NCBI GenBank assembly: GCA_035533875.1
Contig: DATLSZ010000029.1
Span: 31,636 to 95,635, forward strand
Length of the DNA stretch: 64,000 nt
Reading direction: 5' to 3'
From: Candidatus Acidiferrales bacterium
GTDB lineage: Bacteria > Patescibacteriota > Microgenomatia > Levybacterales > UBA12049
Under the pieces are notes generated by a model. It searched no databases, was not told the DNA's origin, and saw nothing but the letters and a program-made list of their open reading frames with translations. Position numbers and translations under genes: made by a program. Shown in pieces: positions 6,721-44,065 of the stretch (the stretch's first letter is position 1; each line of letters begins with the position of its first letter).

Positions 6721-6899
6721 ATTTGGGTGAATCTCGTGTAAATCGAGAGCTGTGCCGCAACTGTGAACTCCTCTAATGGAGTGAGCCAGATCCCCACATC
6801 CCGTTTGACGGGATAAAAAATCTTCCGAGCAGAAGTCCTTTTTTTGTGGACTCCTCGGATGGCCCTACGGCAAGCTCAGGGCAAGCGAGGAGTTTTTTT
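6721..6899 (+). ncRNA. second cobalamin riboswitch; expression platform sequesters the RBS GAGGAG in a 7-bp stem followed by T7
   Basis: Contains GGTGAATCTCGTGTAAATCGAGAGCTGTGCCGCAACTGTGA plus AGCCAGATCCCC. ACTCCTC (6851-6857) pairs with GAGGAGT (6887-6893), followed by TTTTTTT and the ATG at 6900. Confidence 0.75.
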
Positions 6900-8273
6900 A
6901 TGGCAGGAAAAGAAGGGTATACGCAACCTTTTACTGTAAACAATCTAAAACAGTTTATTCCTTCTCTGTATATTTCTCCTGAGAGTAGGATACCTTATGT
7001 GTGGGATGCGAGAGAGATAGAGAGACGAGGTTTTTCTGGAGGTTTGCTTGATCAGCATATCAGGCATTTTGATAGAAATTGGAAGGTCGAAGGACTACCA
7101 CCTGATTGGTTTCGGTTACAAAGTAAGACTGGCAGGCATATAGGATTTAGTATGAATTCTCAAATGGATCTTTTAGGTAATGTAACAAATTCAGAAGTAG
7201 CAACATGGATTCCAAAAACCGTACAGGATTTGCGCGGTTTTAAGCTGGAATATCTGACAGATCATATCGTATATCCCTGTAAGTATGAACGAAGCAGCAG
7301 TGATCCTACACGACTTGAAAATAGGCATTATGGGTACACCGATATCATTGATACGGTTTCAGCAGATGAGCGTGGTGGTTCGGTACGACGGAGTTTGCAA
7401 GAAATGAAAGCGTTTTTTTTGGACGATGATACTCCAGATGGCTCCATTGCTGTTATGGTAAGTCCGAGAGGAGAGACAGGGTTGAGAACCGACGATGGCA
7501 AACTCATACAGTACCCCGACTCTTATTTTTTCTTTATGGTTAAAGAGGGGGATACCGTTCATAATTTTACTTTGAAAACTGATTTTAGTATTGCTGAATG
7601 TCGAGACGTTATCGCGCGATTAACAGGTGTTACGCTGCCTGTTGATGCTCCACTTGAACAATATGTCCGGACAATTGCAAAAATTAAGCCCGGAGGTCAC
7701 GATGCAACTCCTGATGTAACGGAAATTGTTGGCGTCCTTGAACAGGTTCGACCGGAATATGCTTTTACATCTGAAGGCAGAAATGAAAAAATAACGTGGC
7801 GTGATGTCTATCAAGACATCCGTCAAAGAGATCAACTGTACGAGTTTAGTGAAAAAACAAACATGATTATTAATGAATTTGAAGCATATTGTCTTCAGGG
7901 CAATCATACAAAGTTGGAGTATCAAAAAGCCCTTGCGGCAACAATCCTACGAATGTCAAAGGTATTTTTTCTCGAAGAAAACTATCCGGAAGGGGCGGTT
8001 CCTTTAGTATCCAATCAATGGTCAACGGTGAGACCTCCGTTGGCTACGTATGGTGACGTTCTTACAGCTACAACAAAGCGTCCCGGCTGTTCGGGAGGAG
8101 GTTCCGGTGAATCTCTCTTTGTTAAGTCTCCTGACGGGGTAAGACGTGGTGAAACTGATTGGTTTACTTGTCCGAAGTGTCACTATAAAGCGGATGGTCC
8201 GATAGGCGATACGTGTCCAAAATGTAAAATAACAAAACAAGAATATGCCGAATCAGGAGGTAAGGCATGTTAA
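6900..8273 (+). CDS. hypothetical 458-aa protein with C-terminal double-CxxC zinc ribbon, under cobalamin-riboswitch control
   Basis: The six-frame ORF begins at 6846, inside the riboswitch. The ATG at 6900 follows the sequestered GAGGAG RBS. The C-terminus is CPKCHYKADGPIGDTCPKC. No recognisable catalytic motif. Confidence 0.6.
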   Translation: MAGKEGYTQPFTVNNLKQFIPSLYISPESRIPYVWDAREIERRGFSGGLLDQHIRHFDRNWKVEGLPPDWFRLQSKTGRHIGFSMNSQMDLLGNVTNSEVATWIPKTVQDLRGFKLEYLTDHIVYPCKYERSSSDPTRLENRHYGYTDIIDTVSADERGGSVRRSLQEMKAFFLDDDTPDGSIAVMVSPRGETGLRTDDGKLIQYPDSYFFFMVKEGDTVHNFTLKTDFSIAECRDVIARLTGVTLPVDAPLEQYVRTIAKIKPGGHDATPDVTEIVGVLEQVRPEYAFTSEGRNEKITWRDVYQDIRQRDQLYEFSEKTNMIINEFEAYCLQGNHTKLEYQKALAATILRMSKVFFLEENYPEGAVPLVSNQWSTVRPPLATYGDVLTATTKRPGCSGGGSGESLFVKSPDGVRRGETDWFTCPKCHYKADGPIGDTCPKCKITKQEYAESGGKAC

Positions 8274-8280
8274 TAACGTC

Positions 8281-8430
8281 ATGAAGAATACCAATGATTG
8301 TGATATCTGTTACAAAATTATTTGCCGGCAGTGCGGGTGGGAAGCTGATGACGGTGCTGTGTTACAGATACAAAAAGGAGAGATGACTGCTTGCCCTCTA
8401 TGTGGTTGGCAACCCGGAGAAGATAGGTAA
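8281..8430 (+). CDS. rubredoxin-like small metal-binding protein (three CxxC pairs)
   Basis: CRQCGWEADDG and CPLCGW resemble the rubredoxin CxxCGY...CPxCG knuckles. Spacing between them is shorter than in canonical rubredoxin and there is an extra CDIC. The start is ambiguous (8245 or 8281). Confidence 0.4.
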   Translation: MKNTNDCDICYKIICRQCGWEADDGAVLQIQKGEMTACPLCGWQPGEDR

Positions 8431-8526: not shown

Positions 8527-8555
8527 TTGACATCCCATAATATTTATACTATAAT
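8527..8555 (+). promoter_or_regulatory. consensus sigma70 promoter TTGACA-N17-TATAAT, 9 nt upstream of the ATG at 8565 (leaderless transcript predicted)
   Basis: Exact consensus hexamers with a 17-nt spacer read in the sequence. The -10 ends 9 nt before the start codon. Confidence 0.55.
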
Positions 8556-8564
8556 ACCTTCATT

Positions 8565-8906
8565 ATGTCAGCAGAATGGCGAGTTACTCGTCCAGAAAAT
8601 GTAGACCCTAGAATCAAAGAAGCAAGGGTAGAAGCGCAACTTAATGAATTTGCGTCTAATAGGCGTGCTTTAGCAACAAGTAGAGGTTTGAAGGCTTGGG
8701 GTTTTGGTACAGCACTTGCTGGAGGAGCAGTTGTTTTAGCTGCTACTGCATTACTACCTTTCGTCCCGGCCGCCGCAGTTACCTATGTTGCTGCATCCGC
8801 AGCAGTAGGTAGTTTTGCATGGCCATTGGGTCTTTTGGTCATGGGCTTTGGTAAAGCAAAAGAATCTGTTAACGGTTTCACAAGAAACAAGCTAGCTAAA
8901 GCCTAA
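8565..8906 (+). CDS. small membrane protein (two TM helices)
   Basis: Hydrophobic Ala/Gly/Leu-rich segments; no other motif recognised. Confidence 0.5.
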   Translation: MSAEWRVTRPENVDPRIKEARVEAQLNEFASNRRALATSRGLKAWGFGTALAGGAVVLAATALLPFVPAAAVTYVAASAAVGSFAWPLGLLVMGFGKAKESVNGFTRNKLAKA

Positions 8907-8917
8907 ACTTTACCACT

Positions 8918-9247
8918 ATGGAACCTTCATATAAAGATCTGCTTTTACAAGTTCTTACGGTAATGGGTTACCGAAACAAAGAGACCTATGCTACGGAATT
9001 TGAAGAGACGAATCATATAGAAGCAGTGACGAACTGTATGGAGATGCTTCCTGTTTCTCTACGAGAAAAAATAAAAACAAAAGAGATTGATGCTGCAGAG
9101 GCTATAAAGAATATCCCTCATGACCTCTATGAAAAGGAATTAACAACAGTATCCACAACCGCGCTTTTTTCATTACTTGATTATATGAGACCAGTGCTTA
9201 CCAATGACCAAAAGCAAGAAATAGTCGATATCATTACCGCTTATTAA
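8918..9247 (+). CDS. hypothetical protein
   Basis: 109-aa ORF lying in the operon between 8565 and 10013. Confidence 0.45.
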   Translation: MEPSYKDLLLQVLTVMGYRNKETYATEFEETNHIEAVTNCMEMLPVSLREKIKTKEIDAAEAIKNIPHDLYEKELTTVSTTALFSLLDYMRPVLTNDQKQEIVDIITAY

Positions 9248-9293
9248 TCTGCATTTCATTGTTTCGGGAGCCTTATCATGTTAATATAGGAGT

Positions 9294-10010
9294 ATGGATC
9301 CGAGTACACCTGCTGCCCAAGACGTGCAGAATCAAACGCCTGCTGATCAGCCTGTAAATCAAGCGCAACAGGCGACATCAGTGCCTCCTGATAATACGGC
9401 ACAACCTGCGTCGCAACCGCCACTACCGAAGCCGCAAGCGCCAAAGCATCAGATATCAGTGGGTAATATAGAAGCAGGATCTTCTGTCGTTGAGGATGGA
9501 GATGAGGATGACGATGACGAAGAATTGATGGTTTCTCCTCAGGAAACCAAGAATCGGATGGTTCTGGGACAGAATGAAGGAGAAGACGAAGATGAGACAG
9601 CCACAGTTGTCGCAGGTCAGCAAGGTGTCGCAGATATCCAGGAAAATGTGGAGTTACAACCTTCAGCGCCCGAATTGTCAGTAACAGGGAGTCCTGAGGT
9701 TGAGAAAGTTATTGAGCGTACTGCAGATCAGGAGAAGCCTGCGATACCGAAAGAAGTGATGGATGCGGGAGTTACCCATTCCGGTCCTGGTGTGATCATG
9801 GTTGAGCAGCAGAATAACTTTGGAGTTACGCAGATGCCGATATCCTATCAGCAGGCAGCTGTGCAGATAAAAAAAACAAAGTTTAAACAGTCCAAGCACT
9901 GGCTTTTGGGAAAGATCATGTATATCTGGAGGAAGCTGCAAACAAAAACAAGTAAGGAGAAAATGCCAGAAGAAGATACGCAAGAAGAAAACAGTATAGT
10001 ATTACCATAA
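9294..10010 (+). CDS. acidic, low-complexity (Q/P/D/E-rich) hypothetical protein
   Basis: Runs of DGDEDDDDEE and a Pro/Gln-rich N-terminus. It stops 3 nt before the next gene. Confidence 0.45.
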   Translation: MDPSTPAAQDVQNQTPADQPVNQAQQATSVPPDNTAQPASQPPLPKPQAPKHQISVGNIEAGSSVVEDGDEDDDDEELMVSPQETKNRMVLGQNEGEDEDETATVVAGQQGVADIQENVELQPSAPELSVTGSPEVEKVIERTADQEKPAIPKEVMDAGVTHSGPGVIMVEQQNNFGVTQMPISYQQAAVQIKKTKFKQSKHWLLGKIMYIWRKLQTKTSKEKMPEEDTQEENSIVLP

Positions 10011-10012
10011 TT

Positions 10013-12394
10013 ATGCAGTTACAATCAATAACATCACAAAATATAACAAGCGTTATTTTATCGGCATTTTTGATTCTCATAGGACTCGTTCTTTTGGCGG
10101 GGCTTTTGTGGGGGCTATTCTTCATTTTTGTTCTTTGGCTTCGCTACCGAAATCGTGAATCCGAATCGCTTAATTCTATTCTCTTGCAGGTAACCGTTCC
10201 AAAAGAAAATGAAATCAAAATCGATGCAGCCGAACAACTTTTTGCAAGTCTTTATGCGCTTTATGGAACGACAAGATTTGAATATTTCAGACATCAGCCG
10301 CACATTTCTTTTGAGATTGTCGGGTTGCCCGGAGACATACGATTTTACGTCAATGTCCCGGCAAAATACCGTGATTTTGTTGAAAAACAAATAAATGGTG
10401 CATATCCTGAAGCGGATATCCTGCCAGTAAATGATCCTGCCGCCAAGCAGCGTGATGGTACAGTGATCGGAACGGAATATAATATTTTTTCAGAGAATGG
10501 CAAAGTCGCCTTCATGTGGATGAATTTGAAAGGAGCAAATTATTTACCGATTAAAACATACAAAGATCTTCCTGTTGACCCGCTAGCACAAATTACTACT
10601 ATTTTGGGGAAGATGAGTGAAGGAGAGGGCGCTGCTATTCAGATACTTATCCAGCCCTCGGGTCCAGAATGGCAAAAAGTAGGTCGTGGGTATATCGGCA
10701 ATGTCAAAAAAAATGAATCAAATCCTGAGAAGGCAAGTTATAAAACCGATGCTAAGGAACTTGAAGCAGTTGAAAACAAACTCAGCAAGCCTGGATTTTA
10801 TACAACGATCAGGGTGGTCGTCTGCTCCAATACACAAGAACAGGCAAATGCACATCTTAATAACATCAGAGGAGCATTCAGTCAATTTAATTATGTAAAT
10901 TCCTTCAAAAAACGCTGGCAATTTTTCAGAGGCTTATTTATGACTGATTTCATTTATCGTTATTTCCCAATGTTCCGAGAGTCATCGGTATTAACTAGTG
11001 AAGAATTAGCTAGTATTTACCATTTTCCCAACAAAAGCATCGGCACACCAGGCATTCACTGGCTTTATTCTAAACGCTATGCTGCGCCATCCACTATTGC
11101 AACATCGGGATTATATCTGGGAAAAAGCACATTCAGAGGATCATCGCGTCCCATTTTTGTCGATCGTGAGGACAGGAGGCGGCATTTCTATATCATCGGA
11201 AAGACCGGTACCGGTAAAACTGAGTTTCTCAAGACGATGATCACACAGGATATTCTCAATGGTGAGGGCTGCGCTGTAATTGACCCGCATGGAGACTTGG
11301 TGGAAGACATTCTTAAGATTATTCCTCCAAAACGTGCTGAAGACGTCATTCTTTTTGATCCTTCAGATTATGATCGCCCGATGGGCTTTAATATGCTGGA
11401 AGCGGAGACTGAGCAGCAGAAGCATTTCGCCGTCAACTCTATCATAGGACTTATGTATAAGTTGTTTGATCCGAACAAAACCGGTATCGTTGGACCGCGG
11501 TTTGAGCATGCCGTCCGAAACGCTATGTTGACCGTCATGTATGAAAAGGGGAGTACCCTTATTGAGGTTATGCGTGTTCTGACTGATCCTACCTATGTAC
11601 AGGAAATGCTGCCGAAAGTTCAGGATCCGATTATTAGGAGATATTGGACGGATCAGATTGCGCAGACATCAGACTTTCATAAATCGGAAGTCTTGGATTA
11701 TATTACATCAAAATTTGGGCGGTTTGTTACGAACAAAATGATCCGTAATATCATCGGTCAGTCGGATAGTGCGTTTTCATTCCGCAAAGTCATGGATGAA
11801 CAAAAGATACTCCTTATCAATCTTTCCAAAGGAATCATCGGTGAAGAAAATTCCAACTTTTTGGGGCTTGTTCTTGTTCCGAAGATCTTGATTGCCGCTA
11901 TGTCACGGCAAGATATGCCAATGAGTGAAAGGAAAGATTTCTTCCTGTATGTCGACGAGTTCCAGAATTTTGCAACTCCTGATTTCGCGCAGATTCTTTC
12001 AGAGGCCCGAAAATACCGGCTTAACTTGATCGTTGCCAATCAGTTCATCGGTCAGATGGAAGAGGAGATCAAAAACGCTATCTTCGGTAACGTCGGTACC
12101 GTTGCCTCATTTCGTGTCGGTGTGACCGACGCAAGTTACCTGCAGCACGAGTTCCAACCAATATTCAGTGAACAGGATTTGATTAATGTTGATAAATTTA
12201 ACGCATATGTGCGGACCATTATCGGAGGAGAAACGGCAGAACCGTTCTCTCTTGACACAACCAAAGATCTCTCAAAAGAAAAATCGATGGAGAATCCGCG
12301 TGTTGCTCAGCTGGTGAAAGAATTATCGCGCTTGAAGTATGGGAAGACTGTGGCAACTGTCGAGGCTGAAATTGCTCAACGGTCACGACTTTAA
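10013..12394 (+). CDS. membrane-anchored FtsK/HerA/TraD-VirD4 superfamily P-loop ATPase (type IV secretion coupling-protein-like)
   Basis: Two N-terminal TM helices, Walker A GKTGTGKT near aa 395 and Walker B YVDEFQNF. The overall layout resembles TrwB/VirD4 with an extra roughly 300-aa N-terminal domain. Confidence 0.6.
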   Translation: MQLQSITSQNITSVILSAFLILIGLVLLAGLLWGLFFIFVLWLRYRNRESESLNSILLQVTVPKENEIKIDAAEQLFASLYALYGTTRFEYFRHQPHISFEIVGLPGDIRFYVNVPAKYRDFVEKQINGAYPEADILPVNDPAAKQRDGTVIGTEYNIFSENGKVAFMWMNLKGANYLPIKTYKDLPVDPLAQITTILGKMSEGEGAAIQILIQPSGPEWQKVGRGYIGNVKKNESNPEKASYKTDAKELEAVENKLSKPGFYTTIRVVVCSNTQEQANAHLNNIRGAFSQFNYVNSFKKRWQFFRGLFMTDFIYRYFPMFRESSVLTSEELASIYHFPNKSIGTPGIHWLYSKRYAAPSTIATSGLYLGKSTFRGSSRPIFVDREDRRRHFYIIGKTGTGKTEFLKTMITQDILNGEGCAVIDPHGDLVEDILKIIPPKRAEDVILFDPSDYDRPMGFNMLEAETEQQKHFAVNSIIGLMYKLFDPNKTGIVGPRFEHAVRNAMLTVMYEKGSTLIEVMRVLTDPTYVQEMLPKVQDPIIRRYWTDQIAQTSDFHKSEVLDYITSKFGRFVTNKMIRNIIGQSDSAFSFRKVMDEQKILLINLSKGIIGEENSNFLGLVLVPKILIAAMSRQDMPMSERKDFFLYVDEFQNFATPDFAQILSEARKYRLNLIVANQFIGQMEEEIKNAIFGNVGTVASFRVGVTDASYLQHEFQPIFSEQDLINVDKFNAYVRTIIGGETAEPFSLDTTKDLSKEKSMENPRVAQLVKELSRLKYGKTVATVEAEIAQRSRL

Positions 12395-12402
12395 ATTTAT
12401 TA

Positions 12403-12469
12403 GGGATAGAGACTAGTGATTTCTACAAGAAAATTAATTAATGCACTAACCACTAGTCTCCCTTTTTAA
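12403..12469 (+). terminator. intrinsic terminator (GAGACTAGTG ... CACTAGTCTC stem plus TTTTT) between convergent genes
   Basis: A 10-12 bp inverted repeat at 12403-12418 and 12451-12462, followed by a T-run at 12463-12467. Confidence 0.6.
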
Positions 12470-12649: not shown

Positions 12650-13159
12650 TTAGATATCCAGATATTCGACTGGATTTTCAAAACGGGTTTCCAAATCTTC
12701 TAACGTAGAAAAGAGCGATTTCGGTAATTTCTTTTCAAGAGAGGAAAGATTTTCTCCGACAATAAGTTCTGTACCGTTTGTCTGCTCGAGGTAATCAGCG
12801 TTTTTGGACCATTCTTTAGGATTTGTTAACAATGTTGCTTTTGCAGATTGATGTAATAATATTGCCCAGTTCTCTTTTTGAGTACGATAGATTTTAGCAT
12901 CCATTAGCCACACTTTATCATCCGAAAAGCCTGACCATTTACCAACTTCCTGTCCGATAAAGCGTTGTTCCCTTTGAGAATTGCTCTGTCCAATTTTTAC
13001 TGAAATTTCTTTCATGCCCTTTTCTTTTTCTTCATGACGGGATACATATTCTCTGAGTGCTCTGGCAATCACCGAAGATAATGCCTCACCGGCAATTTCT
13101 TTTGCTCGGTTAAAGAGGGATTCGTCTTTGTCGCTTACATAGATTGTCTTATTTCCCAT
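12650..13159 (-). CDS. ribbon-helix-helix-like N-terminal domain protein ending in E-Y-L-D-I (EXLDI-family-like)
   Basis: N-terminus TIYVSDKDESLFNRAKEIAGEALSSVIARALREYV fits an RHH/antitoxin-like fold. The protein ends ...PVEYLDI. Confidence 0.45.
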   Translation of the reverse strand: MGNKTIYVSDKDESLFNRAKEIAGEALSSVIARALREYVSRHEEKEKGMKEISVKIGQSNSQREQRFIGQEVGKWSGFSDDKVWLMDAKIYRTQKENWAILLHQSAKATLLTNPKEWSKNADYLEQTNGTELIVGENLSSLEKKLPKSLFSTLEDLETRFENPVEYLDI

Positions 13160-13241
13160 ATACGTATATTATATATATATGCATATATTTGTCAAGTACT
13201 ATCCTGTTTTAAGGTTTCGTTGAAATTACGTTTGAATATAT

Positions 13242-13504: not shown

Positions 13505-14143
13505 TTAATAATTTGTTACATTATTTGTGCTATGTTGTTTGAACCATATAGTATTCTGAATCATTTGCGGTTGTTGAGCGCCTCCATCCATTAACTGTTG
13601 TGTTAAGTATGTTGTGAGTTCATGAGACCCTTGAATATCTTTCAGGATAAATTCTTCCTGGTGTGTTGGTCGATCAAAGGTAATAAGGATGTCTCCCATA
13701 TCGATGATTTCATTCATAAAACCACTGCTCACAAGATCAATTTCTGTGCAATTGACTCTGTCCAGCATGACATCATTTGCAATATATGAGGTGAGTGGCG
13801 TATATCGGAGTTCAAGAATTTTTCGGTTGGTTAAGATATACATATGGAAATACCACTCAATAATGACTTTTGTTATAAGGCTTATTGCGATGCTAATGAG
13901 AAGAAGTGTTGTGGTAAAGAAGAGTGAAGAGGAAACAAAGAAATTATTGAACAGTACAAAGGCACTTGAGACAAAAAAGACTGTCAAACAACAAATGACA
14001 ATAATTGGAGTAATAACAACAAAAGGATGTTTTCTTTTGACGAGAAGCAACTGTTCGTCTTTCAGCGTTAGGAAAATATTCCAGTTTCCTCTGGTTATCA
14101 TACCATTTTGCATAAGAAAATTTTTCCTTTCTGGGCTATCCAT
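13505..14143 (-). CDS. membrane-anchored bacterial PH-domain (YdbT/bPH_2-like) protein
   Basis: Two TM helices followed by a soluble domain. The architecture resembles YdbS/YdbT-family proteins. Confidence 0.45.
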   Translation of the reverse strand: MDSPERKNFLMQNGMITRGNWNIFLTLKDEQLLLVKRKHPFVVITPIIVICCLTVFFVSSAFVLFNNFFVSSSLFFTTTLLLISIAISLITKVIIEWYFHMYILTNRKILELRYTPLTSYIANDVMLDRVNCTEIDLVSSGFMNEIIDMGDILITFDRPTHQEEFILKDIQGSHELTTYLTQQLMDGGAQQPQMIQNTIWFKQHSTNNVTNY

Positions 14144-15347: not shown

Positions 15348-17084
15348 ATGGAGGAGTTTTCTTTTAAGAAATTTTTCTATCCGTTGACATCTGTTAAAGC
15401 AGTTCATTTTATTATCCTCACCGGGCTGATTGTTTATTTCAAGAGTTTATTTAACGGATTTGTGTGGGATGATGCAGATCAAATTGTCAATAATCCGTTG
15501 ATTCTTCATCTGGGTAACATCCCTTATTTTTTTACCCACAGTACGTTTTATACGGGCGGAGCACAGTCTGCGTTATCGGGACTTTATTATCGTCCAACAA
15601 TGATGGTTTTGTTTGCACTAACAGCTTCAATGTGGGGAGTCTCTTCATTTATGTTTCATCTCAATACTATTGTGCTGCATATTGCGAACAGTATCTTAAT
15701 TTATTTTTTTATCAAAAAGCTCCTCGGTGTCAATAAATTAAAATATGCAATTCCTGCATCTTTTTCTGCAGCAATGCTCTATCTTGTCCATCCGGCGAAT
15801 GTAGAAGCAGTGGCGTATGTGTCTGCAACATCGGAATTACTCTACACATTTTTTCTTTTAGTTGCATTGAATGCGACTCTTTCTTTTGGATTCAGTAGTA
15901 AATATTCATTTGCCAAGCTGCTGCTGATATTCATTAGTGTTACTTTGTCGCTTTTTTCAAAAGAATCAGCGCTTTTAACGGTACTTTTTGTCCTTTTCCT
16001 TTCTTTTTTCTTCTTCCGTGGTAAGATAAAGATCCTTCTTATACCCAGTTTGCTTGGTGTTGGTTTGTATAGTTTTTTCCGTTTTATTCTATCACATCTT
16101 TCGGCTCCTCAGAATAATATTGGTTTACCGATTGCAAAAGCACCATTAACACAACGGCTTTTTACGGTGCCGTACGAACTCTTTTCGTATATACGGATTA
16201 TCTTATTCCCCAAAGACCTGCATATATCACAAGCGTATATTGTCACAAATCCTTCATCGGTACAATTTTATCTGCCGTTTTTTGCTGATTTTATTATGCT
16301 GTTCATAGGATTGTATTATTTGATTAGAGCAAAATCCAGACTACTTTATTTTTTTACCCTATGGCTTTGTTTGTCTTTGGGACTCGTTCTCAATATCATT
16401 GTACCCTTAGATTTTACTATTGAGGAGCGGTGGCTCTATGTCCCGCTTATCGGCGTTTTTGGTATTGCTGCTGTTATCTTTTCTAACATTTTCGGCAGCA
16501 AATGGAAGTTTTTAAAACAAATATCAGTTGTAGTTGTGATAATAGCAATCATTTTGTTTTCTCTTCGGACAATGATAAGGATAGGTGACTGGGTTGATTC
16601 ATTGACATTATACCGGCATGATATTGTACTTTCACACGATTCATTTGAGCTATATACCAATTATGGATCGACACTATACAGTGTCGGAGAATTAGCACAG
16701 AGTGAAGATGCCTACCGAAAAGCAATCCAATTGGAGCCAAATGATTTATGGGCACTGAATGATCTCGGATCAATTTATGCCAATCAAGGAGACTATAAAA
16801 AAGCAATGCCGCTTTATCAGAAATCAATGCAAATTGCCCCAACATATGCCTCATATGAAAATCTTGCGGAAATATATTATTTGACCGAAAAACCGTTTCA
16901 AGTGATTCCTGTTCTCAAACAATATCTTCAAGTCTTTCCAAATAGCGCAAAACTTAACCAGCTGACAGCATTGGAATACAGTGCAGTAGGAGAGATAGAT
17001 CTCGCTAAAGCATATGCCCGTAAGTCGGCAGCACTTAATTCTACATCGGATAACGTGACACCCTTACTGCCGCTACTACAATAA
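15348..17084 (+). CDS. TMTC-like polytopic membrane protein with C-terminal TPR repeats (putative protein O-mannosyltransferase-like, DUF1736)
   Basis: Signature NGFVWDDADQIVNNP, 9 or more TM helices, and a C-terminal TPR region (YANQGDYKKAMPLYQKSMQIAP). Confidence 0.7.
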   Translation: MEEFSFKKFFYPLTSVKAVHFIILTGLIVYFKSLFNGFVWDDADQIVNNPLILHLGNIPYFFTHSTFYTGGAQSALSGLYYRPTMMVLFALTASMWGVSSFMFHLNTIVLHIANSILIYFFIKKLLGVNKLKYAIPASFSAAMLYLVHPANVEAVAYVSATSELLYTFFLLVALNATLSFGFSSKYSFAKLLLIFISVTLSLFSKESALLTVLFVLFLSFFFFRGKIKILLIPSLLGVGLYSFFRFILSHLSAPQNNIGLPIAKAPLTQRLFTVPYELFSYIRIILFPKDLHISQAYIVTNPSSVQFYLPFFADFIMLFIGLYYLIRAKSRLLYFFTLWLCLSLGLVLNIIVPLDFTIEERWLYVPLIGVFGIAAVIFSNIFGSKWKFLKQISVVVVIIAIILFSLRTMIRIGDWVDSLTLYRHDIVLSHDSFELYTNYGSTLYSVGELAQSEDAYRKAIQLEPNDLWALNDLGSIYANQGDYKKAMPLYQKSMQIAPTYASYENLAEIYYLTEKPFQVIPVLKQYLQVFPNSAKLNQLTALEYSAVGEIDLAKAYARKSAALNSTSDNVTPLLPLLQ

Positions 17085-17117: not shown

Positions 17118-18887
17118 ATGGACGAGTTCATAAAAGCAACAGAGAGAAAAGAAGTTGAAGAAGCGTTTTCTTTCAGGAACTTTTTTGTTCCTTTGACGAC
17201 AGTAAAGGCAATTCATTGGATTGTTATTATCGGGGTTATCGTTTTTGCGAACAGTTTATTTAATGGATTTGTGTGGGATGATAAGACTTATGTTCTCAGT
17301 ATTTCTCAGACGATTGGTTTACATATCATAAAACTCTTCGGACAAAATATCATTACCTTATCTGGCTATTACCGTCCGATTGGCTTATTCTATTTTAGCG
17401 TACTGTATAGTATTTTCGGACAAACACCCTTTTACTATCATCTTCCGCAAATCATCCTTCATATAGTTAATACAGTATTGGTATTTCTTTTATTTGCATC
17501 CTTTTTCAGAAAAAATATTGCTTTTTTTCTCTCCCTTATTTTTTTAGTTCATCCAATCCAGACAGAATCAGTCATCTATATTGCCCCCACTGATGGTATT
17601 CTTTTCTTCTTTTTCGGAATATTGACACTTGTTATCACTAATAATAAACAAACATATCGTTTATGGATTATCACAGGAATATTAATCTTCCTTGCGTTAT
17701 TGACGAAAGAATCGGCAATTGTGTTTATTCTCTTGCTGCTTATCTTCAGAATACTTTTTAATAAAGGTAAAGTTGTACTGTATGGTTTGATAAGCCTTTG
17801 TGCGATGAGCGTGTATTTTTTTATCAGGTTCTTTATATTTCATGTTTATTTTTATCACATTACGTTCATTCCGATGGCACGAGTATCATTTGTTGACAGG
17901 TTATTAAATATTCCTGCAATAACCTGGTATTATTTGAAAACATTTTTTTATCCCACGCACTTGATCATCGACCAGCAATGGGTGATTACGCAGTTCAATT
18001 TTCAAACGTTATATCTTCCGTTATTTATTGATTGTGCCTTCTTTTTTCTCGTTATTTTTTTTAGTATATATCTCTTAAAACATAAGAGCACATTGTTTCG
18101 CGTCTATTTGTTCTTTGTTTTGTGGTTTGGTATCGGACTTGGGATTTACGAACAGATTATACCGCTTGATATGACTGTTGCTAACAGGTGGTTTTATGTG
18201 CCGATTGTCGGTCTGATTGGTATGATCGGCATTGCCATCGAAACATTTTTATTAAAAACTAAAACCAGTAAAAAAACAGTCTATATAGTTTTAATACTTA
18301 TTATAGTTTTACTTTCCGCAAGAACTATGGTCCGAAATACGGATTGGCAAAATGCTCTTATTCTTTATGAACATGACAGCATGCTCACAAGCAGTTATGA
18401 TCTGGAAGGTAATCTTGGTGAAGAATTATACTTGGCTGGCTATAAAGATAAGGCACTGTATCATTATAAAAAATCAGTGAATCTTTTGCCGTTTGACAGG
18501 ACGCTGAATAATATCGGCGTTATCTACGAACGAGAAGGAAAGTATCAACTGGCAAAACAATATTATCTTAAAGCAATCAACGCAGTAGATCCCATGCCGC
18601 CGTATCACCATGATGTAACGCTTTATCAGAATGTGTCACGAATGCTAATATATTTTGGAAATCCTGAAGATGCGGTTACATATCTTAACCAGGGATTGAA
18701 AATATATCCACATGATTATGTATTACTTCTTTTGAAGGGAATGGATGAATATAAATTGCAAGAAACAGAAAAGGCAAAATTATCTTTGCAAAAATCATAT
18801 TCTCTTGCACCAAACGATGCAGCAAAGAAAGTTATTCTGCAGTTCATGAATGATCCCACTCAGCAAATACCGCTGCAAGATTTTTAA
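17118..18887 (+). CDS. TMTC-like polytopic membrane/TPR protein (tandem paralog)
   Basis: NGFVWDDKTYVL motif and the same architecture. The 5' region ATATCTGCTAGGATA upstream of the start is shared with the gene at 15348. Confidence 0.7.
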   Translation: MDEFIKATERKEVEEAFSFRNFFVPLTTVKAIHWIVIIGVIVFANSLFNGFVWDDKTYVLSISQTIGLHIIKLFGQNIITLSGYYRPIGLFYFSVLYSIFGQTPFYYHLPQIILHIVNTVLVFLLFASFFRKNIAFFLSLIFLVHPIQTESVIYIAPTDGILFFFFGILTLVITNNKQTYRLWIITGILIFLALLTKESAIVFILLLLIFRILFNKGKVVLYGLISLCAMSVYFFIRFFIFHVYFYHITFIPMARVSFVDRLLNIPAITWYYLKTFFYPTHLIIDQQWVITQFNFQTLYLPLFIDCAFFFLVIFFSIYLLKHKSTLFRVYLFFVLWFGIGLGIYEQIIPLDMTVANRWFYVPIVGLIGMIGIAIETFLLKTKTSKKTVYIVLILIIVLLSARTMVRNTDWQNALILYEHDSMLTSSYDLEGNLGEELYLAGYKDKALYHYKKSVNLLPFDRTLNNIGVIYEREGKYQLAKQYYLKAINAVDPMPPYHHDVTLYQNVSRMLIYFGNPEDAVTYLNQGLKIYPHDYVLLLLKGMDEYKLQETEKAKLSLQKSYSLAPNDAAKKVILQFMNDPTQQIPLQDF

Positions 18888-19984
18888 TGAATTCCAGAAA
18901 TTGTTGATGCTTTTTTGTGGATCTTGGCGATAAAAAATCCTTCCATTGTTTCACTTGGGAAAACTCTAGCGCAGTTTTGTGTATGCTTGAAATTTTTCTT
19001 TTTCCATGCTGTTAAACTGTTTTGCAATTGCACATTTGGCATTGTTATTTTTTCAACTGTTAGCGCGTCTGGTGTTTTATCAACGACCCATTCAATTACT
19101 TCTTCGTTTTCTTCTGGCGAAAGAGTACATGTTGAGTAAACAATGATTCCTCCTACTCTTGTCGCGGATATAGCTGAGCGAAGTAAATACTTTTGCAATT
19201 TTGATAATTGTTTTACTTTTTTCGGCGACCAATCCTGATACGTTTTTGGATCACCACAACGGACCCGTCCTTCCATAGAGCAGGGGACATCAACAAGTGT
19301 TTTATCAAAATATTCAGGATAAAATTGCCAGATTCGTTCACCATGTATGTTGGTGATCAGAAAACTCGGAATACCCTGGGAATCGGATGACCTGAGAGTC
19401 AGAAATTCAGAGATGCTGGCAATCTGATTGCTCTGAGTTTTCTGGAAAGGAATACCATAGTCGTTTAATATTCGCTCCATTTTATATAACCGTGGACGAC
19501 TGATATCGTTTGCAACTATAGTAGCTTTATTTTTTGTGATTGCTGCGATCATTGTTGCTTTGCTTCCAGGGGCAGCGGTAATATCAAGAATTTTTTCATT
19601 TGTTTGAGGATCAAGTGTCAAGACAGGTATCATACTTGAGAGATTTTGGATATATAACAACCCATTTTTATATTCATCCGTTCCTGTTAGCTCAGGGATG
19701 GATTTGTTTTTGAGAATGAATGCATCGGGATACCAGGATACCCTTTCAACATCAAATCCTTGTTTGATTAATGATTTATTTAACGATTCTGTAGTAGTTT
19801 TTATTGTATTGGTCCGAAAAGATGGAAGCGTATTGTTCGAAAGCGCCTCAAGTAAATTATTAAATTCTTTCTCGGAATATATTTTTTTCCATCTATCCAG
19901 CATTTGTTCAGGTAAATTTTGACAGAGATTCATAGTTCTTATTATACAATATTGATTGTACAGGAGTAAAATTACCTCTTGCAT
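18884..19984 (-). CDS. RsmB/NOP2/Sun-family RNA m5C methyltransferase
   Basis: SAM-binding and catalytic motifs IVANDISRPR and DVPCSMEG ... YSTCTLSPEENEEVI. An alternative start lies at 19933. Confidence 0.75.
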   Translation of the reverse strand: MQEVILLLYNQYCIIRTMNLCQNLPEQMLDRWKKIYSEKEFNNLLEALSNNTLPSFRTNTIKTTTESLNKSLIKQGFDVERVSWYPDAFILKNKSIPELTGTDEYKNGLLYIQNLSSMIPVLTLDPQTNEKILDITAAPGSKATMIAAITKNKATIVANDISRPRLYKMERILNDYGIPFQKTQSNQIASISEFLTLRSSDSQGIPSFLITNIHGERIWQFYPEYFDKTLVDVPCSMEGRVRCGDPKTYQDWSPKKVKQLSKLQKYLLRSAISATRVGGIIVYSTCTLSPEENEEVIEWVVDKTPDALTVEKITMPNVQLQNSLTAWKKKNFKHTQNCARVFPSETMEGFFIAKIHKKASTISGIH

Positions 19985-27952: not shown

Positions 27953-28723
27953 CTAGATTGTAATTTCTGCTGTTAATCCGAAATGATCGGAGAGATCTTC
28001 ATCAATTACTGCAAATTTTTTTACCTCCAAATCCTTACTGGTAAAGATATAATCGACTGCAAGCCCTTTGGGAAATAATTGTTTGGCTCGATGGTTTTTT
28101 GGATCCAAGGTATTTGTTATCTTATGTTCTGTAATAAGATTGCGGGTGAGTGTGTCGATTTTTTTGATAAGCGGCTGATCCGGGGTGATATTGAAATCAC
28201 CCGAAAGCACAAACGGTGGCGTCACCGTTTGCAAATAGTCAAAGAGCATTTCACCTTGTTTGGTCTGAAACGGTTTTTCAATATGATCTCCTCCCCAGGC
28301 AGCATGAGTATTGATGCATGAGATCTGTTTGTTCTCAATTTCAAAGGTAAGATGCAACACTGTCCGCCCAACATTCTCGTATGCTGTTGAATCTGAGGGA
28401 AACGGTGCAAATTTTGAAAGGATAAGTTCTTTTTTAGCTAGAAGTTTATAATGATTTTTATAAAATATTCCGTTGCCCATATATGCATCCGAGCTTGAGG
28501 TATAGCGCTGTGCGATTGAAAGTACGCCGTAATATTTGTCCTGCAGGATTTTTTGTAATTCTGCGAACGTGTTGCGACGTGAGTGGATATTTCCGACAAT
28601 TGTATCTTTTCCCGTTAATTCCTGCAGGTGTATGATGTCAAAATCATGAGAAGTTATATAATGAATTTGCTTGTCCCAATAGTTGTCTGCATTGATATTG
28701 AGCTGGAGCAGTTTTATTATCAT
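27953..28723 (-). CDS. endonuclease/exonuclease/phosphatase (EEP) family protein
   Basis: LQE...SGDFN...SDH motif distribution typical of the EEP fold. Confidence 0.7.
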   Translation of the reverse strand: MIIKLLQLNINADNYWDKQIHYITSHDFDIIHLQELTGKDTIVGNIHSRRNTFAELQKILQDKYYGVLSIAQRYTSSSDAYMGNGIFYKNHYKLLAKKELILSKFAPFPSDSTAYENVGRTVLHLTFEIENKQISCINTHAAWGGDHIEKPFQTKQGEMLFDYLQTVTPPFVLSGDFNITPDQPLIKKIDTLTRNLITEHKITNTLDPKNHRAKQLFPKGLAVDYIFTSKDLEVKKFAVIDEDLSDHFGLTAEITI

Positions 28724-43330: not shown

Positions 43331-44065
43331 TTATGAATGATTGTCTTCAAGGATTTTTTTTGCGGTTTTTTTCAGTGACTCCTCTGTTTCTTTTTGGTAC
43401 TCTTGATACAAATACCAGATGCAAAAGATAGTAATAAAAAGAAGTGTGTAGGAGAAAAGAAAAACAATTGTTGCTGACAAACTTTTGATAATCCCCTCCC
43501 CTGTCGTTGTCAGCGAATAGAGAAAAAATCCGATGAGCGCAAAGGGGAGTAAGAGCAGATATCCATGGACCCAATCATTCTTGCTGTGATGCCGATAACG
43601 TCTGGGGACGTGTCTGAAGATATGGGTAAATTCTTTGGGTACATAGAGTGTATAGATAATAAATCCGGTAAAGAAGATGAGACCAAGCAGGGTATTGATA
43701 ACTGCAGTAACTAATCCTTCGACAAAAAAACTCCAAAGGAAAATAAAACTCATCAGTATGGCACCGCTGGCCAGGATGATAGTCCGGAGTTCTTTTTTTG
43801 CCAATTTGCGTGTTTTGGGTACAAAGGATTTGTGCAGCCAATGCTTTGCTTCTTGTTCTTCCTGCATGTAGCGAACTGCGCGTTTGAGACTTTCGTCATT
43901 CTCTTTTTGTATCTCTTTATACAGGTACCAGCTGACAATGAGCATCAAAAGCAGCATGGGGAAGAGGAACACAAATGACGTGCTATTTTGCATTGTTAAC
44001 AGGAGAAGCGCAATGATGATAAAGGCGATTGCAGTGAGACGGGCTTTATGCAATTGATCCAGCAT
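43331..44065 (-). CDS. membrane protein with internal tandem duplication
   Basis: Two similar halves, each with a 2-TM hairpin followed by a LYKEIQKENDESLKR / LYQEYQKETEESLKK-type helix. Confidence 0.45.
   Translation of the reverse strand: MLDQLHKARLTAIAFIIIALLLLTMQNSTSFVFLFPMLLLMLIVSWYLYKEIQKENDESLKRAVRYMQEEQEAKHWLHKSFVPKTRKLAKKELRTIILASGAILMSFIFLWSFFVEGLVTAVINTLLGLIFFTGFIIYTLYVPKEFTHIFRHVPRRYRHHSKNDWVHGYLLLLPFALIGFFLYSLTTTGEGIIKSLSATIVFLFSYTLLFITIFCIWYLYQEYQKETEESLKKTAKKILEDNHS

What the first reader, a model, noticed from the sequence alone, without database searches (positions are those of the whole stretch)
8527..12394. Leaderless four-gene operon ending in a membrane-anchored VirD4/TraD-like ATPase
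A perfect TTGACA-N17-TATAAT promoter ends 9 nt before the first ATG. The operon encodes a 2-TM protein, a small soluble protein, a disordered acidic protein and a 793-aa ATPase. The ATPase has two N-terminal TM helices, Walker A GKTGTGKT and Walker B DEFQNF, which is the architecture of T4SS coupling proteins. It also carries an extra roughly 300-aa N-terminal domain. No VirB4, relaxase or pilin genes are nearby. This could be a minimal DNA-translocation or uptake module rather than a conjugative system.
Basis: partly seen in the sequence, partly recalled or inferred. Interest (0 to 1): 0.6.

Follow-up and report, generated by a model that had tools for sequence, protein, structure and literature searches.

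The report
Orphan coupling-protein ATPase in a Patescibacterium
This is a chromosomal, very highly conserved copy of the "coupling-protein" motor ATPase of conjugation-type secretion systems in a Levybacteria-like ultra-small bacterium; orphan genes of this kind have already been counted in print, and the new details here are the fold of its extra N-terminal domain and its constant small partner gene.

Summary
The sequence features are real. A perfect TTGACA-N17-TATAAT promoter lies 9 nt before the first ATG, followed by four tightly spaced + strand genes. The last encodes a 793-aa P-loop ATPase that groups with type IV coupling proteins (TrwB, VirD4, TraD), not with FtsK or HerA.

Three points need correction:
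- The ATPase has one N-terminal membrane helix, not two.
- The "extra" 300-aa domain is Pfam DUF8128. Its predicted fold matches only the N-terminal domain of VirB4 (TrwK).
- The "operon" is two modules. ORF1-ORF2 is a lineage-restricted cassette that also occurs elsewhere in related genomes. ORF3-ATPase is a conserved pair (59 of 84 related loci, always adjacent) with its own conserved leaderless extended -10 promoter.

Leaderless starts are common across this window, so they are not special to this locus.

Full-length homologues on Bacillus plasmids sit in the coupling-protein position, first in the operon and next to a relaxase, ahead of TcpC, TcpE and a VirB4-like ATPase.

Thousands of VirD4-like homologues encoded away from virB4 in Patescibacteria have been published (PMC12102498).

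Most likely role: the substrate-receptor or motor ATPase of the Patescibacterial type IV secretion system, or an exapted derivative of it. A stand-alone DNA-uptake module is untested and less likely.

The parts
8527..8555 (+). P1: perfect sigma-70-type promoter TTGACA-N17-TATAAT, ending 9 nt before the ORF1 ATG (leaderless layout)
   Evidence: Read directly. Unique in the window with 0.01 expected by chance. The same architecture lies 8-9 nt before the ORF1 homologues in L006, L008 and L010.
8565..8906 (+). ORF1: 113-aa small membrane protein, rich in G and A, probably two TM helices. First gene of a separable ORF1-ORF2 cassette.
   Evidence: ORF list. Hydrophobic stretch at residues 46-93. 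Family alignment A5 of 8 sequences. The iterative HMM found it in only 5 of 84 loci. No Pfam, PHROG or PADLOC match.
8918..9247 (+). ORF2: 109-aa soluble protein, second gene of the cassette
   Evidence: Alignment A4 has 54% mean column identity and 10 invariant positions. Present in 8 of 84 loci, always between the small Zn-ribbon gene and ORF3, and sometimes duplicated. Also found with ORF1-like genes between recG and tyrS, with no ATPase within 5 kb (L096, L097).
9259..9287 (+). P2: promoter-like element TTGTTT-N17-TAATAT with TG upstream (extended -10), ending 6 nt before the ORF3 ATG
   Evidence: Read from the sequence. Of 56 distinct ORF3 upstream regions, 45 have a TAnnnT box 5-8 nt before the start. 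Of these, 31 have exactly 6 nt plus the TG, and TTG lies near -35. Function is inferred; no transcript data are available.
9294..10010 (+). ORF3: 238-aa acidic, largely disordered protein. Short conserved motifs (PEVE, LPxT/S) and a basic amphipathic W-containing C-terminal helix. Constant partner of the ATPase.
   Evidence: The iterative HMM finds one member in 59 of 84 loci, in every case the gene immediately upstream of the ATPase and nowhere else. Alignment A1 has invariant P182 and W203. A profile search found 237 database relatives, all 'hypothetical' with no Pfam domain. Identity to L002 is 36% where the ATPase is 77% identical.
10013..12394 (+). 793-aa membrane-anchored P-loop ATPase of the type IV coupling protein branch. 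Its ATG lies 2 nt after the ORF3 stop.
   Evidence: Pfam TrwB_AAD_bind 5.9e-10, DUF87 1.7e-8, T4SS-DNA_transf 1.4e-7 and TraG-D_C 1.8e-5, all above gathering scores. NCBIfam best matches are TraD and the CD1115 VirD4-like family. AlphaFold pLDDT 87.6. TrwB TM-score 0.61-0.66.
10052..10141 (+). Single N-terminal transmembrane helix (about residues 14-43), followed by the basic stretch RYRNR
   Evidence: Hydropathy and family comparison. AlphaFold models one helix, 11-53.
10175..11017 (+). N-terminal domain (about residues 55-335), Pfam DUF8128, with a VirB4 N-terminal-domain-like fold
   Evidence: PF26449 DUF8128 in precomputed annotation. Domain-only AlphaFold model has pLDDT 91.7 and pTM 0.91. 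In Foldseek against PDB the top 14 hits are all TrwK/VirB4 of R388 (E 1.7e-8 to 2.6e-6, TM-score normalised to the query 0.46-0.56). The next hits are unrelated, at about 4e-4.
11198..11221 (+). Walker A motif GKTGTGKT (residues 396-403)
   Evidence: G396, G401 and K402 are invariant in alignment A2.
11411..11755 (+). All-alpha insertion of seven helices (residues 467-581) inside the nucleotide-binding domain, as in TrwB
   Evidence: Secondary structure of the AlphaFold model. The Pfam TrwB_AAD_bind match spans residues 387-684.
11954..11971 (+). Walker B motif DEFQNF (residues 648-653)
   Evidence: D648, E649 and F650 are invariant in A2.
12403..12467 (+). Terminator-like hairpin (GGGA..GAGACTAGTG / CACTAGTCTCCC, large loop) followed by TTTTT, between convergent genes
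   Evidence: Sequence. Fold energy -18.4 kcal/mol. The simple terminator scan did not report it because of the long loop.

Best explanation
The window is chromosomal DNA of a Levybacteria-like member of the Patescibacteria (CPR, class Microgenomatia). The functional core of the finding is a conserved two-gene unit, ORF3 plus the ATPase.

The ATPase is a member of the type IV coupling protein (T4CP) branch of the FtsK-HerA superfamily. It has one membrane-anchor helix (N-out, C-in). This is followed by a cytoplasmic domain with the fold of the VirB4 N-terminal domain (DUF8128). The rest is a TrwB-like RecA-type nucleotide-binding domain carrying a seven-helix all-alpha insertion.

By analogy with TrwB and VirD4 it would form a membrane-bound hexamer. 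That hexamer would use ATP to recruit and push a substrate, DNA or protein, toward a translocation channel. This step is inferred.

The channel is most likely the MPF-FATA-derived VirB4-type secretion system that most Patescibacteria encode elsewhere, typically near dnaA. This step is also inferred, and a repurposed T4SS-independent role is not excluded.

ORF3 is a fast-evolving acidic disordered protein with a basic amphipathic C-terminal helix. It is translated from the same, probably leaderless, transcript. It most likely acts as an adaptor, regulator or substrate-like partner supplied in trans. It may replace the acidic disordered C-terminal tail that plasmid homologues carry in cis. This is inferred.

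ORF1-ORF2 is an unrelated small membrane-plus-soluble protein cassette with its own consensus leaderless promoter. It has been inserted upstream in this lineage and may add read-through transcription.
For: Family placement:
- Pfam and NCBIfam matches are to the coupling-protein branch.
- PDB sequence and profile searches give TrwB (2.3e-7 with the profile) and DotL best, HerA weaker, and no FtsK.
- Foldseek gives TrwB TM-score 0.61-0.66 and also hits Cagbeta.

N-terminal domain:
- DUF8128 annotation.
- A VirB4/TrwK-only Foldseek signal for the isolated domain.

Coupling-protein role of homologues:
- The B. subtilis plasmid NZ_CP032854.1 protein aligns over query residues 74-747 (E 3e-56).
- It is the first gene of an operon continuing with a Replic_Relax relaxase, TcpC, TcpE and an AAA_10 VirB4-like ATPase.
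- A Peribacillus plasmid has the same layout.
- 378 plasmid records of Bacillus, Streptomyces, Staphylococcus, Clostridium, haloarchaea and Sulfolobus hold relatives.

Vertical inheritance and constraint:
- The flanking genes are housekeeping and syntenic (GAPDH, NrdR, class II RNR, PduO, trp operon).
- The ATPase is 77% identical to L002, comparable with RNR (85%), NrdR (82%) and TrpRS (73%). RsmB is 53%.
- 22,946 50%-identity clusters match at E<=1e-3.

Partner:
- ORF3 is adjacent in 59 of 84 loci with a 2-5 nt gap or overlap.
- Its promoter-like element is conserved.

Literature (PMC12102498):
- 5,713 VirD4-type homologues in 2,918 of 3,035 Patescibacteria genomes, only 148 of them near virB4.
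- VirB4 is present in 2,417 genomes, near dnaA and dnaN in Microgenomatia.
- Relaxases are rare.
Against: - No T4SS component, relaxase or pilin gene lies in this 64-kb window or in the 6-kb flanks of the related loci. Coupling to a T4SS is therefore inferred from family membership and literature only.
- Published counts show VirD4-like homologues in more genomes (2,918) than VirB4 (2,417). The Southlakia homologue was not essential although other T4SS genes were. Both points favour a role at least partly independent of the T4SS.
- Housekeeping-level conservation is unusual for a secretion-system accessory ATPase.
- The N-terminal membrane part (one helix) and the VirB4-like N-terminal domain differ from textbook VirD4 and TrwB.
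- Scores against curated TraD, VirD4 and CD1115 equivalog models are far below their cut-offs (48 bits against 250-366).
- Nothing shows that ORF3 binds the ATPase.
- Oligomeric state and substrate were not tested.
Confidence: 0.55

Rival explanations
1. A stand-alone minimal DNA translocation or uptake module. The ATPase hexamer, with ORF3 and perhaps ORF1-ORF2, would move DNA across the membrane without any VirB4-type apparatus. This would be loosely comparable to archaeal Ced DNA import or to competence motors.
For: - No T4SS genes lie nearby.
- There are weak NCBIfam matches to CedB and CedD around the P-loop (5.8e-5 and 6.7e-5).
- VirD4-like homologues are more widespread than VirB4 in Patescibacteria, and the authors state that exaptation cannot be excluded.
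- Conservation is at housekeeping level.
Against: - The CedB and CedD matches cover only about 70 residues around Walker A and are far below cut-off (22 bits against 600-700).
- A single-pass anchor offers no obvious channel, and no polytopic membrane partner is conserved next to the gene. ORF1 is present in only 5 of 84 loci.
- In Southlakia, transformation depends on ComEC and the com system.
- Close full-length relatives work inside complete conjugation operons.
Confidence: 0.15
2. A VirB4-type assembly or energising ATPase paralogue rather than a coupling protein. The single helix plus VirB4-like N-terminal domain plus ATPase would resemble a VirB3-VirB4 fusion, and the protein would be a structural part of a T4SS inner-membrane complex.
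For: - The best full-length Foldseek hits are TrwK/VirB4, aligned over about 890 columns across both domains (E 2e-16).
- The isolated N-terminal domain hits only TrwK/VirB4.
- An N-terminal membrane helix precedes it.
Against: - Sequence profiles for VirB4 fail. TIGR00929 scores 12 bits against a cut-off of 643. There is no AAA_10 or CagE_TrbE_VirB Pfam match, while coupling-protein families pass.
- The ATPase domain alone matches TrwB better (E 4e-13, TM-score 0.61-0.66) and carries a seven-helix all-alpha insert.
- In Bacillus plasmids the homologue coexists with a separate AAA_10 VirB4-like ATPase and sits next to the relaxase.
- hhalign of the family profile against that VirB4-like protein is not significant.
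Confidence: 0.12
3. A chromosome-handling translocase (FtsK/SpoIIIE-like or HerA-like) used in cell division or repair in a reduced genome. The resemblance to coupling proteins would then reflect only shared superfamily ancestry.
For: - Conservation and synteny are at housekeeping level, next to nucleotide-metabolism genes.
- DUF87 (HerA central domain) scores above its cut-off.
- Foldseek lists HerA structures.
Against: - FtsK_SpoIIIE scores below its gathering score (19.3 against 24), and only over 36 residues at the P-loop.
- No FtsK structure appears in the sequence searches.
- HerA equivalog models are far below cut-off (16.5 bits against 970).
- No NurA-like partner gene is present.
- The N-terminal domain is VirB4-like, not a HerA HAS barrel.
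- Plasmid homologues are conjugation genes.
Confidence: 0.06

Closest known systems
VirD4/TrwB/TraD type IV coupling proteins (for example TrwB of R388, PDB 1E9R; Cagbeta, 8DOL; DotL, 6SZ9)
   Same: - RecA-like nucleotide-binding domain with Walker A and B motifs and an inserted all-alpha domain.
- Pfam TrwB_AAD_bind, T4SS-DNA_transf and TraG-D_C all score above cut-off.
- Membrane anchored at the N-terminus.
- Best solved relatives by sequence and by profile.
   Different: - One membrane helix instead of two.
- An additional domain of about 280 residues with a VirB4-like fold lies between the anchor and the ATPase.
- No acidic C-terminal tail.
- Chromosomal, with no relaxase or T4SS genes nearby.
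- Scores are far below the curated TraD and CD1115 equivalog cut-offs.
'DUF87 domain-containing' coupling-protein-position ATPases of Bacillus-type conjugative plasmids (for example WP_121549396.1 on NZ_CP032854.1), with relatives on Streptomyces, Staphylococcus, Clostridium, haloarchaeal and Sulfolobus plasmids
   Same: - Collinear over both the N-terminal domain and the ATPase (25% identity, E 3e-56, query residues 74-747).
- Same two-domain architecture.
   Different: - The plasmid protein heads a conjugation operon with relaxase, TcpC, TcpE and a VirB4-like ATPase.
- It lacks the N-terminal membrane helix.
- It carries an acidic disordered C-terminal tail of about 140 residues in cis.
- In a haloarchaeal plasmid the N-terminal domain is a separate gene.
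VirB4/TrwK (R388; PDB 7O42, 8RTD)
   Same: - Two-domain layout: an N-terminal domain followed by a C-terminal ATPase.
- The N-terminal domain fold matches with Foldseek E 1.7e-8 and probability 1.00.
   Different: - VirB4 sequence models do not match.
- The ATPase domain is closer to TrwB.
- A separate VirB4-like ATPase exists in the plasmid operons that carry homologues.
Orphan VirD4-like homologues of Patescibacteria reported by Quinonero-Coronel et al. 2025 (PMC12102498)
   Same: - Same phylum.
- Same situation: a VirD4-type homologue encoded far from virB4, no relaxase, and possible exaptation.
- This gene would very probably be counted among them. That is an inference from its Pfam profile.
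   Different: - In the passages read, that paper does not describe the DUF8128 or VirB4-like N-terminal domain, the ORF3 partner, or the promoter layout.
- No paper in the searched library mentions DUF8128.

Membership tests
Type IV coupling protein (VirD4/TrwB/TraD) | P-loop NTPase of the FtsK-HerA superfamily with Walker A and Walker B motifs | tested here: met
   GKTGTGKT at residues 396-403 and DEFQNF at 648-653. These positions are invariant in the family alignment.
Type IV coupling protein (VirD4/TrwB/TraD) | Matches curated coupling-protein domain models above threshold | tested here: met
   Pfam scores against cut-offs: TrwB_AAD_bind 39.0 vs 20.5, T4SS-DNA_transf 31.2 vs 20.1, TraG-D_C 25.1 vs 22.
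Type IV coupling protein (VirD4/TrwB/TraD) | Meets NCBIfam equivalog or subfamily cut-offs for TraD or the CD1115 VirD4-like family | tested here: not met
   48.5 bits against cut-offs of 366 (SXT_TraD) and 250 (conju_CD1115). It is therefore a divergent relative, not an equivalog.
Type IV coupling protein (VirD4/TrwB/TraD) | All-alpha domain inserted in the nucleotide-binding domain, and overall TrwB-like fold | tested here: met
   Seven helices at residues 467-581 in the AlphaFold model. TrwB chains give TM-score 0.61-0.66 and E about 4e-13.
Type IV coupling protein (VirD4/TrwB/TraD) | N-terminal membrane domain with two transmembrane helices | tested here: not met
   A single hydrophobic segment and a single modelled helix. 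This holds across the family.
Type IV coupling protein (VirD4/TrwB/TraD) | Genetic association with a relaxase and/or T4SS genes | tested here: not met
   None in the window or in the flanks of the related CPR loci. It is met for plasmid homologues. The rest of this genome could not be searched.
Type IV coupling protein (VirD4/TrwB/TraD) | Hexamer formation, ATPase activity, and DNA or substrate binding | not testable with these tools
   Needs biochemistry or multimer modelling.
VirB4 | VirB4-type N-terminal domain | tested here: met
   In Foldseek with the isolated domain, the top 14 hits are all TrwK/VirB4 (E 1.7e-8 to 2.6e-6). The next hits are unrelated, at about 4e-4. This is structural evidence only.
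VirB4 | Matches VirB4 sequence models (TIGR00929, AAA_10 or CagE_TrbE_VirB) | tested here: not met
   TIGR00929 scores 12.3 bits against 643. No AAA_10 or CagE_TrbE_VirB match appears in Pfam. hhalign against a ConE-like VirB4 gives probability 2.4%.
FtsK/SpoIIIE | FtsK_SpoIIIE motor domain above threshold | tested here: not met
   19.3 bits against a cut-off of 24, over residues 376-411 only. No FtsK chain appears in the PDB searches.
HerA | HerA equivalog score, HAS-barrel N-terminal domain, and NurA partner | tested here: not met
   helicase_HerA scores 16.5 bits against 970. The N-terminal domain matches VirB4, not HerA. No NurA-like neighbour is present. Only the generic DUF87 model passes.
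Pfam DUF8128 (PF26449) | N-terminal domain assigned to PF26449 | tested here: inconclusive
   The assignment is listed in the precomputed annotation for this exact protein and all close relatives. The local Pfam copy did not return it, so it was not re-scored here.

The most novel reading that the evidence does not exclude
This family preserves a hybrid VirB4/VirD4 architecture: membrane helix, VirB4-like N-terminal domain, then TrwB-like ATPase with an all-alpha insert. In Patescibacteria it would have become a near-universal core gene evolving as slowly as housekeeping genes. It would work with a dedicated acidic disordered partner (ORF3) as a translocase that is independent of conjugation and possibly independent of the VirB4 apparatus, for example feeding host-directed or host-derived macromolecules across the membrane. 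It would then be both a window on how coupling proteins arose from VirB4-like ancestors and a central, unstudied part of the epibiotic lifestyle.
Probability: 0.15. Interest if true: 0.7.

Novelty: new variant of a known kind. Interest (0 to 1): 0.4.

Why it matters
Patescibacteria make up a large share of bacterial diversity and depend on other cells. In the one genetically tractable species, T4SS genes are essential for epibiotic growth. The role of the VirD4-like ATPases, which are even more widespread, is unknown.

This analysis adds three points:
- One such ATPase family has a VirB4-like N-terminal domain.
- It is as conserved as ribonucleotide reductase.
- It is always paired with an unannotated disordered protein.

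These give concrete handles for experiments, such as interaction, localisation and depletion studies. They also bear on the evolutionary relationship between the two signature T4SS ATPases.

In itself, however, the locus is a member of a catalogued and already discussed class, not a new kind of system.

Tried and rejected
- Rfam and tRNA scans of the window found nothing.
- Pfam, NCBIfam, PHROG and PADLOC searches gave no credible match for ORF1, ORF2, ORF3, the 475-aa protein or the 61-aa Zn-ribbon protein.
- The ORF3 HMM did not detect the small genes directly upstream of more distant DUF8128 ATPases. These ATPases are L085, L086 and L087, at 40-49% identity. Two of those small genes are similarly Q, P and E-rich with a hydrophobic C-terminus. 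The partner family is therefore shown only within Microgenomatia-type genomes.
- hhalign of the ATPase family profile against a single ConE-like VirB4 sequence was not significant. The link to the VirB4 N-terminal domain therefore rests on predicted structure alone.
- R388 (BR000038) is not in the annotated collections.
- A metagenome scan with ORF2 alone found nothing. The alignment-based scan found 7 loci.
- No ORF3-like gene was found upstream of the Bacillus plasmid homologue.
- I found no paper on DUF8128, nor any in the searched library that describes leaderless transcription in CPR.
- A defence-system role was considered (PADLOC mad8 2.8e-16, HerA and DndH at the P-loop). I rejected it as generic ATPase similarity without any defence partner genes.
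- A prophage or mobile-element origin was considered (phrog_5156 4e-85). I rejected it for this locus because of the housekeeping synteny conserved across species.

Full report
**What is in the sequence**

TTGACA (8527-8532), a 17-nt spacer, TATAAT (8550-8555) and 9 nt precede the ATG at 8565. The exact pattern occurs once in 64 kb, against 0.01 expected by chance.

Four + strand ORFs follow: 8565-8906 (113 aa), 8918-9247 (109 aa), 9294-10010 (238 aa) and 10013-12394 (793 aa). The gaps between them are 11, 46 and 2 nt.

- ORF1 has a hydrophobic stretch at residues 46-93, compatible with two membrane helices.
- ORF2 has no hydrophobic stretch.
- ORF3 is acidic and rich in P and Q.
- The ATPase carries GKTGTGKT at residues 396-403 and DEFQNF at 648-653.
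- A hairpin followed by TTTTT lies at 12403-12467, between this unit and convergent genes.

**Organism and context**

The window is ordinary chromosomal DNA. It encodes GAPDH, NrdR, a class II ribonucleotide reductase, a PduO-type adenosyltransferase, a trp operon, TrpRS, ClpB, UvrD, several PMT_2/TPR glycosyltransferase-like proteins and a DUF5667 protein.

The ATPase's closest relatives are 70-93% identical. They come from MAGs labelled Levybacteria/Levyibacteriota and other Microgenomates-type Patescibacteria. A few labels from other phyla look like binning or placeholder names.

None of the larger ORFs scanned against Pfam matches a VirB4, relaxase or pilin family. This covers about 49 of roughly 60 genes; several small ORFs were not scanned. 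No tRNA or Rfam family is present in the window.

**The ATPase: family**

Pfam places it in the coupling-protein branch. TrwB_AAD_bind, T4SS-DNA_transf, TraG-D_C and the generic DUF87 all score above their gathering scores. FtsK_SpoIIIE scores below its cut-off and matches only at the P-loop.

NCBIfam's best matches are TraD and the CD1115 VirD4-like family, but far below their equivalog cut-offs. Against solved structures, the best sequence matches are TrwB and DotL, both with the single sequence and with a 66-sequence profile. HerA is weaker and FtsK is absent.

That test is therefore not met.

The family is very large. A total of 22,946 clusters at 50% identity match at E<=1e-3, and 6,032 at E<=1e-30.

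**The ATPase: architecture**

An AlphaFold model built on a diverse alignment is confident (pLDDT 87.6, pTM 0.77). It shows the following.

- One continuous N-terminal helix, residues 11-53.
- A mixed alpha/beta N-terminal domain, about residues 55-335.
- A RecA-like domain with a seven-helix all-alpha insertion, residues 467-581.

Hydropathy gives one hydrophobic segment followed by basic residues. Relatives with shorter N-termini have a single 20-24-residue segment. 'Two TM helices' is therefore not supported.

In Foldseek against the PDB, full-length TrwK/VirB4 ranks first (E 2e-16, both domains aligned). TrwB follows for the ATPase domain (E 4e-13, TM-score 0.61-0.66), then Cagbeta and HerA.

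The N-terminal domain modelled alone (pLDDT 91.7, pTM 0.91) hits only TrwK/VirB4. All 14 top hits are TrwK chains, with E from 1.7e-8 to 2.6e-6. The next hits are unrelated proteins at about 4e-4.

Precomputed annotation calls this domain PF26449, DUF8128. No paper in the searchable library mentions that name.

It is best described as a VirB4-N-terminal-domain-like fold. This rests on predicted structure. A profile comparison with one ConE-like VirB4 sequence was not significant.

**What homologues do**

A tblastn search against 72,556 plasmids found 378 records. Many hold full-length relatives at 25-30% identity, in Bacillus, Streptomyces, Staphylococcus, Clostridium, haloarchaea and Sulfolobus.

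On B. subtilis plasmid NZ_CP032854.1 the homologue aligns over query residues 74-747 (E 3e-56). It is the first gene of an operon that continues with these genes:

- a Replic_Relax relaxase;
- TcpC;
- TcpE;
- an AAA_10 VirB4-like ATPase;
- a large membrane protein.

A Peribacillus plasmid has the same layout. First in the operon and next to the relaxase is where ICEBs1-type elements encode their coupling protein; this comparison rests on my own knowledge of those elements. The position therefore supports a coupling-protein role for the family.

The Bacillus protein differs from the window protein in two ways. It lacks the membrane helix, and it ends in an acidic disordered tail of about 140 residues. 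In a haloarchaeal plasmid the N-terminal domain is a separate gene, overlapping the start of the ATPase gene.

**Linkage to the upstream genes**

I fetched 80 related loci from species-representative genomes, with ATPase identity of 57-86%, plus four places from assemblies. I then searched all their ORFs with iterative HMMs.

ORF3 relatives were found in 59 of 84 loci. Each time it was one copy, and each time it was the gene immediately upstream of the ATPase. No hit occurred anywhere else.

ORF3 is poorly conserved overall, 36% identical where the ATPase is 77% identical. It does keep a PEVE-like motif, an LPxT/S motif, and a basic W-containing amphipathic C-terminal helix. A profile search of 5.8 billion proteins found 237 relatives, all unnamed and without Pfam domains.

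ORF2 relatives occur in 8 loci and ORF1 relatives in 5, or 8 when divergent copies are included. They always lie between a small Zn-ribbon gene and ORF3, and are sometimes duplicated. The same cassette, as ORF1-like, ORF2-like, ORF1-like, also occurs between recG and tyrS with no ATPase within 5 kb.

ORF1-ORF2 is thus a separable module, and ORF3-ATPase is the conserved unit.

**Promoters**

The perfect promoter before ORF1 is conserved before ORF1 homologues, at 8-9 nt from the ATG.

ORF3 has its own conserved element. In the window it is TTGTTT (9259-9264), a 17-nt spacer ending in TGT, TAATAT (9282-9287), 6 nt, then the ATG. Among 56 distinct ORF3 upstream regions, 45 have a TAnnnT box 5-8 nt before the start. 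Of these, 31 have exactly 6 nt plus the extended -10 TG.

Across the window, 10 of 60 genes have a box matching TATAAT at 5 or more of 6 positions, ending 5-9 nt before the start codon. Other offsets give about 3.4. Only 11 of 60 genes have a Shine-Dalgarno-like 4-mer.

Leaderless starts therefore look like this genome's habit rather than a property of this locus. All of this is inferred from sequence; no transcript data were available.

**Constraint**

Against the syntenic relative L002, identities compare as follows.

| Protein | Identity to L002 |
|---|---|
| RNR | 85% |
| NrdR | 82% |
| ATPase | 77% |
| TrpRS | 73% |
| PduO | 69% |
| RsmB | 53% |
| ORF3 | 36% |

The ATPase evolves like a core enzyme.

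**Published context**

Quinonero-Coronel et al. 2025 (PMC12102498) report the following.

- VirB4 is present in 2,417 of 3,035 Patescibacteria genomes. These form a clade nested in MPF-FATA, and in Microgenomatia the gene usually lies near dnaA and dnaN.
- Relaxases are found in only 103 genomes.
- There are 5,713 VirD4-type homologues in 2,918 genomes, of which only 148 lie near virB4.
- The Southlakia homologue was not essential, and exaptation cannot be ruled out.

A 2025 review repeats that the Patescibacterial T4SS is essential for epibiotic growth. It also notes that competence depends on ComEC.

**Interpretation**

Most likely (about 0.55), this is the Patescibacterial representative of a monoderm and archaeal coupling-protein family. 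It would be a membrane-anchored hexameric motor or receptor, working with the VirB4-type system encoded elsewhere or exapted from it. ORF3 would be a dedicated adaptor, regulator or substrate-like partner.

ORF3 may supply in trans the acidic disordered segment that plasmid homologues carry in cis.

Shown here:
- family placement;
- domain architecture, from predicted structure;
- plasmid synteny of homologues;
- the ORF3-ATPase linkage;
- the level of conservation.

Inferred:
- hexamer formation and the substrate;
- coupling to the T4SS;
- ORF3 binding to the ATPase;
- leaderless transcription.

The rivals are a stand-alone DNA-translocation module (0.15), a VirB4-type paralogue (0.12) and a chromosome translocase (0.06).

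**Verdict**

This is a real, well-delimited locus whose main gene belongs to a known and already discussed class.

The new observations are modest but concrete:
- the VirB4-like fold of DUF8128;
- the single anchor helix;
- the obligatory ORF3 partner with its own conserved leaderless promoter;
- housekeeping-level constraint.

Interest is 0.4. Novelty: a new variant of a known kind.

Noticed in passing
window 13168-13195 (- strand), before ATG at 13159: A second perfect consensus promoter, TTGACA-N16-TATAAT, ends 8 nt before the start of a 169-aa gene with no Pfam match (12650-13159, - strand). This is another apparently leaderless gene.
   Followed up: partly
whole window (for example starts at 37117, 26901, 49008, 43331-44065 (-), 18884-19984 (-), 27953-28723 (-)): Leaderless-type layout is common. 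Ten of 60 genes have a box matching TATAAT at 5 or more of 6 positions, ending 5-9 nt before the start codon, against about 3.4 at other offsets. Only 11 of 60 have a Shine-Dalgarno-like 4-mer. I found no paper in the searched library that describes leaderless transcription in CPR.
   Followed up: partly
window 6846-8273 and 8245-8430 (+): A 475-aa protein ending in a CPxC...CPxC zinc ribbon overlaps a 61-aa four-cysteine protein. Neither has a Pfam family. They are conserved just upstream of the ORF3-ATPase unit, in 18 and 25 of 84 related loci respectively. They may be functionally linked, and in L002 they abut ORF3 directly.
   Followed up: partly
L096 4668-5741 and L097 1357-2430: The ORF1-like, ORF2-like, ORF1-like cassette lies between recG and tyrS in other Patescibacteria-like contigs, with no ATPase nearby. 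The small 2-TM plus soluble protein pair is thus an independent module of unknown function.
   Followed up: partly
L090 8905-11565 (B. subtilis plasmid NZ_CP032854.1): The plasmid homologue of the ATPase has a highly acidic disordered C-terminal tail of about 140 residues and no N-terminal membrane helix. The CPR protein has the helix but no tail, and is instead paired with the acidic disordered ORF3.
   Followed up: no
L099 5923-10066 (Halorussus limi plasmid NZ_CP096663.1): In this haloarchaeal plasmid the DUF8128-like N-terminal domain is a separate 376-aa gene overlapping the start of the ATPase gene. A second 'TraM recognition domain' ATPase lies directly upstream.
   Followed up: no
window 10013-12394 (protein residues 234-791): There is a strong match to phrog_5156 (unknown function, E 4e-85) and a moderate one to PADLOC mad8 (2.8e-16). 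Relatives of this ATPase are therefore also catalogued in virus-derived and candidate-defence collections.
   Followed up: no
window 13505-14143 (-) and L087 497-1117: A 212-aa two-TM protein, whose C-terminal part resembles membrane-anchored bacterial PH-like proteins, lies near the ATPase. It is conserved in about 15 Levybacteria-type loci. By eye, a similar protein lies about 4 kb from the ATPase in the more distant locus L087. The similarity was not tested formally.
   Followed up: no
window 15348-17084, 17118-18887, 41622-43328 (-), 57160-58983 (-), 61678-63360 (-): Four of these five paralogous large membrane proteins carry a PMT_2 glycosyltransferase domain, and three carry C-terminal TPR repeats. 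The first two share an identical upstream sequence, atctgctaggata, before the ATG.
   Followed up: no
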